64,000 bases of DNA, taken from assembly GCA_963810935.1 (NCBI GenBank), contig CAWEPK010000016.1, positions 148,975-212,974 on the forward strand, read 5' to 3'. Below are positions 45,001 to 63,000 of this stretch, piece by piece. A program made the position numbers. The stretch comes from an uncultured delta proteobacterium. Lineage in GTDB: Bacteria > Desulfobacterota > Syntrophorhabdia > Syntrophorhabdales > WCHB1-27. How positions within the stretch are numbered: the first letter of the stretch is position 1; each line of letters begins with the position of its first letter.

Positions 45001-48000
45001 TGCAGGCAATGGCGCCATCCGGCATCGATGTGATTATCGGAGCGAAGCAGGACCCTGAATTCGGGCCGGTTATGCTGTTCGGACTGGGCGGCATTTTCGT
45101 CGAGGTCATGCGGGACGTGACGAGCCGGGTGCTCCCGATAGGCCCACAAGAGGCGCGGGAGATGATCGGGGAGATAAAGGGCGGCCGCCTGCTTGCAGGT
45201 TTCCGCGGGGCGCCCCCCGCCGACATCGAGGCGCTGGTGCGTGCGTTGGTTGCCGTATCGGACCTGGCGGTCAGCCACCCTGAGATCGAAAGTCTCGACG
45301 TCAACCCCATCCGTGTGTTCCAGGAAGGCGGCGGCTGCCTTGCCCTGGACGTTAAGGTGGAGGTCCGGGGCGATAATAAATAACCCTGCTGCTTGCAGCA
45401 GGGTTATAAAGCAAGCGAATGCGCCGCGTTGAGGGGGGAGGCTCCACGAGCTTTGCTCGCGGAGCGGGCGCTGAGCCCCGGTAACTGCCCGAAGTACTTG
45501 ATTGCGCGGATGTTTTTGGGCTAAAGTGATGGGCGTTCCTTTTCCGGGGCAAGCCGGAAGGGGCGTGGCGGATCGAAAGCAAGACGTACCGGGTGCTCTC
45601 AGATTGAGGAGGCTAAAGTGACAGGCAACAAGTTCCCGGCCGGCGGTAGGCGGTATCTTTGAAAAAACGGATTCAGCTCTACCTTTTGCTCTTCCTTGCC
45701 CTCTCCCTGATCTTTACGGGTGTCGGCTTCTATGTTTTCCTCATAACCGAGATACCTTCCGTAAAGGCATTGAAGGACCTGACCAACAAGCCCGTCAGCA
45801 CGATTTACGGCGTAGGCGGCCAGGTGGTCTACGTAGTGGTGCCGGACAACAAGATATCGGTGTCTTACGCCAATATGCCCAAGTACGTGCGGGAGGCATT
45901 CCTGGCGGCCGAGGACGCCGACTTTTTCAGCCACAAAGGCGTGGAGATCAAGAGCATTTTCAGGGCGTTCTTTATGAATATCGTCCACGGGCGGGTCGTC
46001 CAGGGGGGCAGCACCATAACGCAGCAGGTAATCAAGGCGCTCATACTGGGGCCCGAGAAGAGCATGATGCGTAAGGTGCGCGAAGCCATCCTCGCCTACA
46101 GGCTGGAGATGTACCTGACGAAGCAGGAAATCCTGAACGTCTACCTCAACAACATCTACATGGGGCAGGGGGTCTACGGCGTGGAGGCGGCGTCCCAGGT
46201 GTATTTCGGCAAGCACGTCTGGGAGATCGACAGGGCGGAGGCCGCCCTGCTGGCAGGTATTGTGCAGGCGCCCGCCAGGTACACGCCCAGGCGGCATCCG
46301 GGGCTCGCCAGGATGAGGCAGCTCTACGTGATCGACCAGATGTGGAAAAAGGGCTTTGTCGACGCGAAGAAAAAAGACGCCATGCTGAAGGAGCGCACGA
46401 GGCTTACTCCCGACGACGGCATATTCGCGGACACCTATTTCAAGAGCGCGATCTGCAAGTACGTGGAAGACAAGTACGGCAAAGGTGTTTTTTCGCGGAG
46501 GGCGCTTAAGATATACGCCACCGTGGATCCGGCGCTGCAAAGGGCCGCGGAGGACGCCGTAAAGAAGGGACTCGCCCAGTACGATGAGCGGCGCGGCGCA
46601 TACGCGGTTGCGTACCATCTCGACAAGGGAAGATGGGAAGGCTTTAAGAGTACTGCCGACAGGGACCTTGCCCTCGTGCCCCTGATCTCCGGCGGGGCGT
46701 GCAACCTCCTTGTTTCGGAAAGGGTCGCGGGAGGCTACGCCGTTTTTGCCGGGACGCGAAAGGGACTTCTCCGGTTGACGGATTTCACGTTCAAACCGGG
46801 GGACGTCGTGCGGGGCATTTACAACGGCGCCGACAAGAAGAAAATGATGCTCTTCACGCCGGTGAGGAACTCCGGCATCGAGGGGGCCCTCGTATGCATG
46901 GATACGGCCCTCGGTTATATTTATGCGGTCGTCGGCGGAAGGGACGTGGAAAAAAGCCCGTACAACCGGGCGTTGTCCGCAAAAGTGCAGCCGGGCTCCG
47001 CTTTCAAGCCTTTCATCTACCTTGCTGCGCTCCAAAAGGGATACGATGTCGATTCCGTGATCCTCGACGAGCCGAAGACATACGGGGGAGGCTTCGGAAA
47101 AACGTGGGTCCCGAAGAACTACGACGGCACCTACAGCGGCTCGATCACCTTGCGCGACGCGATTGCCTATTCCAAGAATGCGGCTACGGTGCGCCTCCTC
47201 GAGTCGGTAGGCGTCGGCTCCGTCAAAAAGGTGCTCCACGACGTAGGCATCGAAGAAGATGTCGAGGACGACCTTTCGATAGCCCTCGGCACCTCCAATC
47301 TCACGCTCCTCGATCTCGTGAAGGGTTTTTCCGCCTTTGCGAACGGCGGCAAGAGAGTGAAACCCTTCATGATAAAACGGATCGAGGACACCCACGGGAC
47401 CGTATTGGAAGAGCACGGGACGGAGATCGAGAGGGCGATGAGTGAAGATGTCGCTTACAAGATGAACGTGCTCCTGCGGGGCGTTACGACTTACGGGACC
47501 GCAAAAGGCGCGAGCGCTCTCGGCTACCCCGTTGCGGGAAAAACCGGGACGACGAACAGTTTTTACGACGCCCTTTTCGTGGGATATACGCCTCATATCT
47601 GCGCAGGCGTGTGGACGGGGTTCGACCAGCGGACCTCCCTCGGACGGGCCGAAAGCGGGGGGAGGGTGGCGCTGCCCATATGGATGAAGTTCATGGCAGC
47701 GGCCATGCACAGGTTCCCCCCTGACGATTTCGAGCCGCCGCAGGCCCCGCCGCCCGATTTACCCGACGCCGGCCGGAATCGCGACATTACACCCTACGAT
47801 TTCAGGGAAGCGACGAAGGTCCCGTCGTCTTGAGGCGGGTTGTATGCAGGAAGCCGTTTTTTTACTTGACTGTAAGCCTGCCTGATTGGTAAACTTAGGC
47901 GCTTCGATGCCCCCGGCAAGGTGAGGCAATAGCCAGAGATTAACTTATGGAATATGTTGCCATCCTGATCATGATCGCCCTCGCGGCGTTCATAGCTGTT

Positions 48001-60000: not shown

Positions 60001-63000
60001 CGGCCTTCGACGCCATACCTCTGATGAGCACGCTCGCTGTGATAGGCATCATATATGGGGCAATCGTAAGCATGATGCAGCCCGACATGAAGCGCCTCAT
60101 CGCGTTTTCGAGCGTGAGCCACCTGGGCTACGTTATGCTCGGCATGTTCGCATTCAACATGCAGGGCATGCAGGGGAGCATTTACCAGATGCTCAACCAC
60201 GGCATCAGCACGGGGGGCCTCTTCCTTTTAGTCGGCATGGTATACGAGAGGCGCCATACGAGGATGATATCCGATTTCGGCGGGCTGTCCGCCTCGATGC
60301 CCATCTTTGCGGTCTTTTTCATGATCGTCACGCTTTCGTCCATAGCTTTGCCTGGGACGAACGGTTTTATCGGTGAATTCCTGATACTGCTCGGCGCGTT
60401 CAAGTCAGTCAAGCTTTACGGTATCCTCGGCGCTATAGGCGTGATACTGGGCGCCGTCTACATGCTCTGGATGTTCCAGCGGGTCATGTTCGGCGAGATA
60501 AAGCACGAGGAGAACAGGAAGGTGAAGGACCTAGGTGCGAGGGAAGTGCTCACCCTCTGCTGCGTTGTCTTCTTCATCATCCTCATGGGCGTCTACCCGA
60601 AGATGTTCTTAAAGAAGATGGACACGTCCGTGCAGGGCTTCCTGGCTTTTGTGAAGGAGAGGAACGCGTACTATTCGACGATGACGGTCAAACAGCCGGC
60701 CGTGGCGGTCAAGCTGCCCGGCGCAGGCAGCCGATAGAGGTTATGGGATGAACATAATGCCGTCCCCTTCCGATTTTGAATGGATCCTGCCGGAGATAAC
60801 GGTAGCCGTCTTCGGGCTCCTCGTTCTCCTTGCGGACGCAGCGCGCACCGAGAGCCGCGGCAGGATGGGCGGTCTGCTCACCCTTGTCGGGTCTGCCCTC
60901 GCCTTCTATTTCACGATGCACCTCTGGTCCGTGCGGACGGATATTTTCAGCGGCCTATACGTCATCGACGGGTTCGGCACCTTCTTTAAGGCCATATTTC
61001 TCCTGATACTCTTCCTAGTAGCGCTGATCTCCCTGGGGTATACGAAGCGGGAGGAGATGCCCGCGGGCGAGTATTATGCACTTTTGCTTTTCGCCGCGCT
61101 GGGCATGATGGTGATGGTCTCGTCGAACAGCTTTATCACGATATTCATCGGCCTCGAGCTGATGTCGCTTTCGATTTACATTCTTTGCGGGCTCCTGAAA
61201 GGGCAGGCGGCCGCCCTGGAGGCCTCTTTCAAGTACTTCCTCCTCGGCTCCTTCGCAACCGCCTTCTTCCTTTACGGGGTAGCCCTCATCTTCGCCTCGA
61301 CTGGCGCAATCGACATCCGCATGGTGCGCACGGTCGCGACTGCCAGGAACCTCGCGGCAGACCCGGTCTTCCTCGCGGGTATCGCGTTGCTGCTGGTCGG
61401 CTTCGGCTTCAAGACGGCCTCCGTGCCCTTCCATATGTGGACGCCCGACGTCTACGAAGGCGCCCCGACCTCCGTCACCGTATTCATGGCGACGGGCGTT
61501 AAGGCCGCCGCCTTCGGCGCCTTTCTGAGGGTCTTTTATACAGCTTTCTACCCGTTTATAGCGGACTGGTCGAGCGTGCTCTGGCTCATCGCTGTGCTCA
61601 CCATGTGCGTGGGCAACATCACCGCCCTCGTCCAGAACAACATTAAGCGGCTCCTCGCCTATTCGAGCATCGCGCACGCGGGATATATCCTGATCGCCTT
61701 CGTAACCGGCGACAGGGTCCTTTCGTCGAGCGTGCTCTATTACCTGCTGGCCTACACCTTTATGAACCTCGGCGCCTTCACGGTGGTGATCGTCCTCGGC
61801 AGGAAGGGAGAGGAGCACGAAGACATCGACAGCTACGCGGGCCTTGCGAGCCGCCACCCTTTCGTCGCGCTCTGCATGACCATCTTTCTCCTGTCCCTGA
61901 CGGGCATACCGCCGCTGGCGGGGTTTGCGGGCAAGTTCTACATTTTCAGCGACGCCATGAAAGCACGCTTCTACTGGCTGGGCGTCATCGGCATGCTTAA
62001 CAGCGCGGTCGCCGCCTATTATTACCTGCGCGTCCTGATGTACATGTATTTCAAGGAGCCGGTGAAGGAGCTGGGCAAAATAGATATTTCCCCGGCCTAC
62101 GTCGTCGTGATGCTGGTGAGCATAGGCGCGCTTCTTTACCTCGGCATCTTCCCGAGGGACTTTGTCCTCCTCGCCCAGAAGTCCGTCTCGATTTTCGGTC
62201 AGTAACTCACCCGGCGCAAGTTCGGATCACGCGAAAGGCCGCCTGCAACTATACGTACACCCGCCCCATGTTGTGGAAAAAACCTTTACATGTGTCTGCC
62301 TTCCTTTACAGCCTGCCGCGGCTGAAAGTGCCGGATAGCCGGTAATACCAACAGGCGCCGGGCTGGCACGTCCCTTGCTTGGGAAAACCGGTATATGACT
62401 GTCAGAAGGGGGTCGAAAGCAAATGAGGCAATCGATTGCCGGTCCCCACGTCGCTTTTTGCGTCTGTCTTTGTGCCCTGCTCCTCCTGCCCGCCATGGAT
62501 CTCGGGCAGGCGTCTCCGCAATCCGGGGTCGTTACTGCCGGCTCAGGGACGCAAGGCAGGGTAAAGCGGATAGGGCCGGCCGAGATGGATGCCGTATACG
62601 CGGCCGGATGGGTAGGACCGTCAATGTTTTATCGGGAGAGCGCCGGGCGCATCATCCTGTGGGACGAAGGGCCGGCCGCTGCCTTGCGCACTATCTTTCC
62701 GAAAGCCGGCCGGCCGCCAATACCGGCTCTCGGCAATTGAGGAGACAGAAGCGATGAAGGGGGGGCGGCCCTAAAAAGCTCGCCTTGCCTTACTGATGAG
62801 GAAAAAGGAGGCCGGGTGAAGCTGTTCATTATTGCGTTTCTTCTCTTCCTGCCTGCCGCTCTTTGTGCGGCAGAGAGTGAGCCCCTTTGCGAAATGAGCA
62901 TTCCCATAGGCAGCGGGCCGTTCGGCTCGATGACGATCAAGCCGAAGGTCAAACCCGCCTCTGCTTTCAAGGACCGGAACATAGTCAAGCAGACCTACGA

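What a model noticed while it worked through the whole genome (the two positions that open the first line are those of the whole stretch)
47926..62226. Respiratory complex I whose NADH module (NuoEF) is replaced by an SfrB/GltD-type NADPH flavoprotein
The C16 nuo operon reads nuoA-B-C-D-[649-aa SfrB/FdhB-like subunit]-nuoG-H-I-J-K-L-M-N with no nuoE or nuoF. The inserted subunit (45% to the beta subunit of Moorella NADP-formate dehydrogenase, 44% to Geobacter SfrB) keeps NuoF's Fe-S domain but carries a GltD-type module, so this proton-pumping complex I most likely exchanges electrons with NADP(H); a canonical NADH-type nuo operon lies on C12.
Evidence so far: Pfam/Swiss-Prot rows; uncalled nuoG N-half read in frame at C16:201.4 kb; orthologue in 16 of 31 order genomes from three families, in all 16 relative loci directly after nuoD, in 14 followed by nuoG and in 2 by nuoH; Complex1_49kDa near Fer4_20 in 2492 genomes.
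(Added by a program. Inside this text positions count along the whole contig: contig position 148,975 is position 1 of the stretch shown here. "Call 12" and the like, gene names such as g00115 and contig names such as C1 are that model's own, and its searches are not shown. The text may have been shortened before it was handed on; [...] marks where a part breaks off. The agent that wrote the report below was given it as the finding of a first reader that could run no searches.)

Follow-up and report, generated by a model that had tools for sequence, protein, structure and literature searches.

The report
Complex I with NADPH-type input module
This anaerobic bacterium encodes a respiratory proton pump (complex I) whose usual NADH-handling head is swapped for an NADPH-type flavoprotein plus a disabled formate dehydrogenase subunit; a similar swap was proposed before in sulfur-oxidising bacteria, and no such enzyme was found tested.

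Summary
Confirmed, with two corrections. The operon reads nuoABCD-X-G-HIJKLMN without nuoE/F. X (649 aa) joins NuoF's N3 cluster domain to a GltD-type FAD/NADP(H) module and is 44% identical over its length to Geobacter SfrB. (1) nuoG is split by a one-base assembly error, absent from 4 of 4 runs. (2) 'NuoG' is not inherited NuoG: it nests among selenocysteine formate dehydrogenase alpha subunits and has lost the catalytic motif, so all of NuoEFG was replaced by an FdhB/FdhA-type pair. The layout holds in 44 of 47 copies in 45 of 96 order genomes and in 37 of 60 loci fetched from the wider phylum. In 13 of those 60 the partner still has an intact Sec/Cys-His motif, including cultured Deferrisoma camini. 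Best reading: a proton-translocating NADP(H):quinone oxidoreductase, non-bifurcating, near equilibrium, so possibly run in reverse. The kind is in print: a 2019 preprint proposes it for Sulfurimonas Suden_1824, whose family is 34% identical and has the same slot, though trees point to a separate recruitment. Cofactor, assembly and direction are untested. This scan reported the same design on five other genomes.

The parts
47866..47895 (+). sigma-70-like promoter candidate upstream of nuoA (consensus match only)
   Evidence: 9 of 12 matches; 7 such sites found against 4.8 expected in shuffles, so weak
47947..48297 (+). nuoA
   Evidence: PF00507
48288..48788 (+). nuoB (N2 cluster subunit)
   Evidence: PF01058, TIGR01957 over cut-off; Cys motifs present
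48785..49297 (+). nuoC
   Evidence: PF00329, TIGR01961 over cut-off
49300..50475 (+). nuoD with quinone-site His20, Tyr69, Asp121
   Evidence: TIGR01962 over cut-off; ungapped to Thermus Nqo4 with offset 18 = H38, Y87, D139; invariant in 30 of 30 rows
50484..52433 (+). X: FdhB/SfrB-type flavoprotein, NuoF N3 domain (Cys76, 79, 82, 122) + GltD module with two [4Fe-4S], FAD and NADP(H) folds
   Evidence: pLDDT 89.8; best folds NfnA, StnC, rmsd 2.0-3.1
52449..54846 (+). NuoG-like subunit = de-catalysed FdhA (about 800 aa; Fe-S cysteines kept, Sec/Cys-His motif lost); split in this assembly by one extra base at 53154-53157
54848..55858 (+). nuoH
   Evidence: PF00146
55855..56271 (+). nuoI
   Evidence: TIGR01971 over cut-off
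56268..56804 (+). nuoJ
   Evidence: PF00499
56871..57182 (+). nuoK
   Evidence: PF00420
57186..59165 (+). nuoL
   Evidence: TIGR01974 over cut-off
59172..60737 (+). nuoM
   Evidence: TIGR01972 over cut-off; full-length alignment to solved ND4
60748..62205 (+). nuoN
   Evidence: TIGR01770 over cut-off

Best explanation
A 13-subunit complex I variant that links NADP(H), not NADH, to the membrane quinone pool and moves protons. Shown in sequence: an intact quinone and pump chassis, and in the NuoEFG slot an FdhB/SfrB-type flavoprotein (X) plus a formate dehydrogenase alpha subunit that has lost its catalytic site. Inferred: NADPH gives a hydride to FAD in X; electrons pass singly through X's two GltD-type clusters and its NuoF-type N3 cluster to the clusters of the G subunit, then NuoI, N2 and the quinone. 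X keeps the N3 domain as its docking and wiring piece to G. It is non-bifurcating. With menaquinone the span is 250-300 mV, matching 4 H+ at 120-150 mV, so it can run forward (NADPH oxidation) or in reverse (pmf-driven NADP+ reduction); the C12 operon serves NADH. Direction is not settled.
For: Tight operon. X directly after nuoD in 44 of 47 order copies, 37 of 60 phylum loci and 77 of 79 Campylobacterota loci. GGGNVA, Tyr419-Arg420-Arg421, Lys232, Arg302 and nine of eleven Fe-S cysteines in 36 of 36 rows, Cys76 and Cys79 in 35 of 36; the Tyr-Arg-Arg triad is named as the NADP(H) phosphate site in 10.1101/717884 and GxGxxA as NADP-type in PMC7483475. All twelve best PDB sequence hits are NADP(H) flavoenzymes by their family (specificity of GltD and DPD partly from names, partly recalled). 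Lys232 and Arg302 align with StnC K170 and R239, the non-bifurcating form in PMC10482914. G keeps its Fe-S cysteines in 33 of 33 rows. Q-site residues kept. Energetics with potentials as in PMC9304861 Table 1 (I used -370 mV, the table gives -380).
Against: No activity, expression or assembly data. Close homologues of X also occur away from nuo genes (20 of 60 phylum loci; 3 more follow nuoN), so X-G can work as a soluble enzyme. In 5 order or phylum loci X is followed directly by nuoH (L035, L036, L055, L061, L068), so the X-G-chassis unit is not fixed. Early menaquinone genes were not found in G000 (MqnE, MqnA/D, MenB below cut-off; MqnA/D in only 8 of 96 order genomes), although MqnP-like and MenA-like prenyltransferases are present, so the acceptor is uncertain. 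PMC9304861 notes that menaquinone reduction may not drive four protons.
Confidence: 0.7

Rival explanations
1. X-G is a soluble SfrAB-like NADPH oxidoreductase that is only co-transcribed with an 11-subunit 'headless' complex I fed by ferredoxin or flavodoxin.
For: Free-standing X or X-G in 20 of 60 phylum loci, including Geobacter SfrBA; nuo operons with nuoD followed directly by nuoH exist in the phylum; 11-subunit enzymes are known (PMC11238625; PMC4911364).
Against: The pair sits exactly in the nuoEFG slot in three separate X lineages and keeps the NuoG-type Fe-S domain that docks on NuoC/D/I in solved complexes (recalled). The operon is retained across four-fifths of family f1 (17 of 21).
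Confidence: 0.12
2. The complex bifurcates: it couples NADP(H), ferredoxin and quinone, as proposed for the Sulfurimonas enzyme.
For: X is an NfnB homologue with the conserved Arg; G has side clusters beyond the main wire; proposal in 10.1101/717884.
Against: X has Lys232 where bifurcating NfnB has a Glu ligand, as in non-bifurcating StnC; no NfnA, NuoE or FMN-bearing NuoF domain in the operon; only one G copy, while the preprint places bifurcation in a second G.
Confidence: 0.08
3. X accepts NADH as well or instead, so this is just a second NADH dehydrogenase.
For: Specificity is inferred from motifs only; Stn also showed low NADH:viologen rates (PMC7483475).
Against: The NADP-type motifs are invariant in 36 of 36 rows; the genome already has a NuoEF-type operon.
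Confidence: 0.07
4. The operon is decaying (nuoG frameshifted) and makes no working complex.
For: One-base frameshift in nuoG in this assembly.
Against: Contigs of 4 of 4 runs lack the extra base; relatives are in frame; the assembly has similar breaks on C2, C4 and C12.
Confidence: 0.02

Closest known systems
Non-canonical complex I of Sulfurimonas/Sulfurovum (Suden_1824; bioRxiv 10.1101/717884, section 7 read whole)
   Same: An NfnB/GltD-type protein with Tyr-Arg-Arg replaces NuoEF between nuoD and nuoG. The Sulfurimonadaceae protein found here has the same domains, is 34% identical over its length and follows nuoD in 77 of 79 loci. That this family is Suden_1824 is inferred from names and gene order; the S. 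denitrificans record itself was not fetched.
   Different: Two NuoG copies there, one here; Cys82 is Gly and GGGNVA is GGGFTS in 13 of 13 rows; its X groups with Geobacter SfrB (99) and its NuoD+H form a separate clade. The preprint proposes bifurcation; also untested.
Geobacter SfrAB, soluble NADPH oxidoreductase
   Same: X is 44% identical end to end to SfrB; partner is a non-catalytic FdhA/NuoG-like subunit. PMC2669807 says it is believed to pass NADPH electrons to the respiratory chain (passages).
   Different: sfrBA stands apart from nuo genes (L110); both Geobacter nuo operons carry nuoEFG.
NADP-type formate dehydrogenase FdhAB (Moorella type; recalled, JGI labels)
   Same: X is labelled FDH beta subunit; G nests among Sec-FdhA.
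   Different: Sec/Cys-His motif lost in the window's clade; embedded in a proton-pump operon.
StnC / NfnA of Stn and NfnABC transhydrogenases (PDB 8oh5, 9n5u, 9bov; PMC10482914 passages)
   Same: GltD module wired to a dead FdhF-like NuoG domain; Lys-ligated cluster; best structural hits.
   Different: Soluble, fused GltD-NuoG chain, works with a bifurcating NuoE/F-like pair.
Canonical 14-subunit complex I and Nuo-Bfu (PMC9304861 passages)
   Same: Chassis NuoA-D, H-N with Q-site; Geobacter-type EFG chassis lies near this one in the NuoD+H tree.
   Different: No NuoE, no FMN/NADH domain; G not in a clade with NuoG of EFG operons (AU p 0.0005 and 0.00002).

Membership tests
Canonical complex I (NuoA-N) | NuoA-D and NuoH-N present and full length | tested here: met
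Canonical complex I (NuoA-N) | Quinone-site His38, Tyr87, Asp139 of NuoD | tested here: met
   His20, Tyr69, Asp121
Canonical complex I (NuoA-N) | Charged axis motifs of NuoA/H/K/L/M/N | tested here: met
   23 of 23 motif strings located; the strings were read off the window's own translations and their role is recalled, so a weak test; NuoM aligns full length to solved ND4
Canonical complex I (NuoA-N) | NuoE and the FMN/NADH domain of NuoF | tested here: not met
   only NuoF profile positions 306-409 match; no gap for nuoE
Canonical complex I (NuoA-N) | NuoG in one clade with NuoG of nuoEFG operons | tested here: not met
   AU p 0.00047 (9 EFG rows) and 0.000019 (3 Geobacter-type rows), 42-row set, LG+G4
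Canonical complex I (NuoA-N) | Quinone reduction coupled to proton pumping | not testable with these tools
   needs biochemistry
SfrB/FdhB flavoprotein family | NuoF N3 domain + GltD module, full-length homology | tested here: met
SfrB/FdhB flavoprotein family | NADP-type GxGxxA and Tyr-Arg-Arg | tested here: met
   36 of 36 rows
SfrB/FdhB flavoprotein family | NADPH oxidation activity | not testable with these tools
   no assay
SfrAB (soluble enzyme) | Stand-alone two-gene unit away from nuo | tested here: not met
   inside the nuo operon
Sulfurimonas-type complex I | GltD/NfnB-type subunit in the nuoD-nuoG slot | tested here: met
Sulfurimonas-type complex I | Two nuoG copies | tested here: not met
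   one copy
Sulfurimonas-type complex I | Common origin of the nuo-embedded subunit | tested here: inconclusive
   One clade of all 36 nuo-linked X is rejected (p 3.6e-6) and the chassis clades are separate, but the trees are unrooted and free copies nested among nuo copies would by themselves cause the rejection
Formate dehydrogenase FdhA | Sec/Cys-His catalytic motif | tested here: not met
   absent in the 12 order rows read; present in 13 of 32 phylum loci with nuoD-X-G
Bifurcating NfnAB | Glu ligand of the FAD-proximal cluster and an NfnA partner | tested here: not met
   Lys232 in all 76 rows with context; no NfnA-like gene in the operon

The most novel reading that the evidence does not exclude
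Desulfobacterota grafted a whole NADP-linked formate dehydrogenase (FdhB-FdhA) onto complex I. Relatives that keep Sec (for example Deferrisoma camini) have a three-port proton pump joining formate/CO2, NADP(H) and quinone. Run in reverse it would give sulfate reducers and syntrophs without Rnf a pmf-driven route from quinol to NADPH or formate. The window's order shows the next step, in which FdhA lost its active site and became a new 'NuoG', repeating independently how NuoG is thought to have arisen, and separately from Campylobacterota.
Probability: 0.35. Interest if true: 0.75.

Novelty: new variant of a known kind. Interest (0 to 1): 0.52.

Why it matters
Complex I is taught as an NADH enzyme; known exceptions use ferredoxin, flavodoxin or F420H2 (recalled). 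A dedicated NADP(H) form has been proposed for Campylobacterota but I found no test of it. This operon shows the design is common in a second phylum, with a graded series from intact formate dehydrogenase to a dead scaffold, and names a cultured carrier of the formate-competent form. It offers a concrete candidate for reverse electron transport in anaerobes that lack Rnf (no RnfC over cut-off in this 93% complete genome; dsrA present), and these genes are now labelled 'formate dehydrogenase beta' or 'glutamate synthase small chain', so the complex is easily miscalled headless.

Tried and rejected
Frameshift as decay: rejected. No RNA holder listed; not evidence either way. ESM Atlas look-up of residues 1-165 gave only NADH_4Fe-4S clusters. 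Promoter/terminator scan near chance level. I recalled that the Thermosulfurimonas genome paper described this module; it does not, it says nuoEFG were not found, and I did not check that genome. G000 C2 locus first looked like a second sfrBA; it is a longer NuoF-like::GltD frame (split by a frameshift) before a Sec-FdhA. Trans-docking idea for free X-G pairs: of 24 genomes searched (20 with free X), most nuoD genes were followed by nuoE/F, G, other redox genes or nuoH, with no uniform pattern; left open. Literature: nine answered full-text searches (plus 59 for Stn) found the Sulfurimonas proposal but no description for Desulfobacterota or of the Sec-FdhA form; one search listed 26 papers of which I read passages of 3. 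Coppi 2007, Sievert 2008 and Pereira 2011 were not held; Nobu 2015, Weerakoon and Olson 2008 and the anammox complex I paper were not read, and any of them may already note the arrangement. Supplements were not opened; Fig. S5 of the preprint bears on the Suden_1824 comparison.
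Full report
Observation. The window carries nuoA, B, C, D, a 649-aa gene (X), a NuoG-like gene and nuoH to N on the + strand from 47947 to 62205. 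Gaps between genes are -10 to +66 bases; D-X is 8 and X-G is 15. There is no nuoE and no FMN/NADH domain of NuoF. X has the NuoF 4Fe-4S (N3) domain at 63-145, Fer4_20 at 163-242 and the GltD-type nucleotide folds at 257-554. It is 44% identical end to end to a protein named SfrB of Geobacter. A second operon with nuoE, nuoF and nuoG lies on C12. The G gene is split by one extra base at 53154-53157; contigs from 4 of 4 public runs (one study) lack that base, a same-genus genome has one 802-aa frame, and the assembly shows similar breaks elsewhere. It is an assembly error. The organism belongs with Syntrophorhabdales by the names of its closest homologues.

Spread. In the order, 45 of 96 genomes hold 47 copies at 60% identity or more; three weaker rows were set aside as free-standing paralogues. 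43 of 47 follow nuoD by coordinates, one more shows the nuoD end at a contig edge, two start at contig edges and one is a fragment. In a sample of 301 phylum genomes 114 have a hit at E 1e-140. I fetched 60 loci chosen from the stronger matches outside the order, so this is not a random sample: X follows nuoD in 37, follows nuoN in 3 and is away from a nuo operon in 20. A distant family member (P0160) proved to be the Sulfurimonadaceae protein; it has 454 relatives in GTDB, and in 77 of the 79 loci returned it follows nuoD, typically with two nuoG copies after it.

The subunit X. The model is confident (pLDDT 89.8) and matches NfnA and StnC best. In 36 nuo-embedded Desulfobacterota rows the FAD glycines, GGGNVA, Tyr419-Arg420-Arg421, Lys232, Arg302 and the GltD cluster cysteines are invariant; the N3 cysteines are kept in 35-36. 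The preprint names Tyr-Arg-Arg as the NADP(H) phosphate site and PMC7483475 gives GxGxxA as NADP-type. Lys232 and Arg302 align with StnC K170 and R239; PMC10482914 shows that StnC oxidises NADPH without bifurcating and has Lys where bifurcating NfnB has Glu. So X reads as a non-bifurcating NADP(H) port. This is inference from homology.

The subunit G. It keeps the cysteines of all N-terminal clusters in 33 of 33 rows. In the order it lacks the formate dehydrogenase catalytic motif, but in 12 of the 32 phylum loci with nuoD-X-G the same slot holds an FdhA with an in-frame TGA before His and about 890 codons on read-through, and one more has Cys-His. One of these loci is from Deferrisoma camini. 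Intermediate, half-decayed motifs occur. In a tree of the first 345 residues the order's G nests in a 46-row clade (SH-aLRT 96) mixed with Sec-FdhA; grouping it with NuoG of nuoEFG operons is rejected (p 0.0005; with the three nearest, Geobacter-type rows p 0.00002). The whole NuoEFG head was therefore replaced by an FdhB-FdhA pair, whose FdhA then lost catalysis in this lineage. In two order genomes X is followed directly by nuoH, and their closest G-like gene is a TGA-bearing FdhA elsewhere; three phylum loci place it before nuoA. These are quick trees without bootstrap and without a root.

The chassis. NuoD keeps His20, Tyr69 and Asp121, equal to Thermus H38, Y87 and D139. All membrane subunits are full length. 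In the NuoD+H tree 28 X-type operons, the window among them, form a clade (99), four more lie nearby, and the Campylobacterota form a distant clade (2 rows left out). Campylobacterota X groups with Geobacter SfrB (99), with which it shares Gly at position 82. Separate recruitment is the simpler reading, but the AU rejection of one nuo clade does not prove it, since free copies nest among nuo copies.

Mechanism. Most likely NADPH to FAD, the two GltD clusters, N3, the G clusters, NuoI, N2, quinone, with proton translocation (0.7). With menaquinone the span is 246-296 mV, which balances four protons at 123-148 mV, so direction depends on conditions. The genome has dsrA, two Sec-FdhA and no RnfC over cut-off. 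Against: the quinone is uncertain, since early menaquinone genes were not found though MqnP-like and MenA-like prenyltransferases are; X-G homologues also work away from nuo genes; and assembly on the chassis was not examined. Rivals: soluble co-transcribed SfrAB (0.12), bifurcating enzyme (0.08), NADH enzyme (0.07), decay (0.02).

What is known. bioRxiv 10.1101/717884 (passages and section 7) states that Suden_1824 replaces NuoF in Sulfurimonas denitrificans, is an NfnB homologue with the NADP(H) residues, and proposes reverse NAD(P)+ and ferredoxin reduction; it also cites a formate-linked complex I in anammox bacteria. PMC4758237 mentions a GltD-like subunit replacing NuoI in mbx-like operons, a different slot. 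PMC9304861 describes Nuo-Bfu, another swapped head. All papers other than that section were seen as passages only. My searches found no account of the Desulfobacterota form or of the Sec-FdhA form, but key subscription papers were not held. The scan's own notes report the same design on five other genomes; I read them after reaching this view and they are not independent support.

Verdict. Real and well conserved; a new variant of a kind already proposed in print and never tested. The added value is the phylum-wide spread, the FdhA origin of the G subunit, and a cultured carrier of the formate-competent form. Interest 0.52.

Noticed in passing
L098, L094, L101, L106, L066, L073, L074, L079, L081-L083, L085 (Sec), L069 (Cys): nuoABCD-fdhB-fdhA-nuoH onward: an apparently catalytic formate dehydrogenase inside a complex I operon; L098 is Deferrisoma camini.
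   Followed up: partly
L231 (G177:C79) 3947-16207: The nuoD-nuoH slot holds CCG-domain (HdrB/D-like) and HdrA-like genes, a GltD-like gene and a Sec-FdhA; three same-genus genomes start the slot with the same gene. A complex I chassis with a heterodisulfide-reductase-like head.
   Followed up: partly
L232 (G330:C244): nuoABCD-E-F, then a fused NuoG/GltD (StnC-like) gene and an FdhA-like gene, then nuoH-N.
   Followed up: no
L226, L227: nuoE/F-like genes lie upstream of nuoA while nuoD is followed directly by nuoG.
   Followed up: no
order-wide; G000:C13:983-4729 (L240): MqnA/D family found in only 8 of 96 order genomes, yet G000 has an MqnP-like prenyltransferase next to a gene whose start resembles UbiD decarboxylases (resemblance recalled): quinone salvage or an unusual pathway.
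   Followed up: partly
G000:C2:8083-13830 (L046): NuoF-like::GltD frame of about 1000 aa (frameshifted here) before a Sec-FdhA; frames of 1020-1080 aa matching X recur, a possible longer ancestor of X that still has the flavin domain.
   Followed up: partly
G000 C8:663471 and C10:306073; C1, C8, C12 contig starts: Two dsrA copies with identical scores and repeated NuoF-like genes at contig ends suggest assembly duplication (contamination figure 7%).
   Followed up: no
window 1553-4456 (+): 967-aa frame with no Pfam match; a 629-aa frame overlaps on the other strand and was not scanned, so it may be a shadow frame.
   Followed up: no
window 4611-7653 (+): CheB-CheR fusion and a PAS frame overlap by 26 bases, probably another one-base assembly break.
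   Followed up: no
G047, G092: Two copies each of the X-type operon.
   Followed up: no
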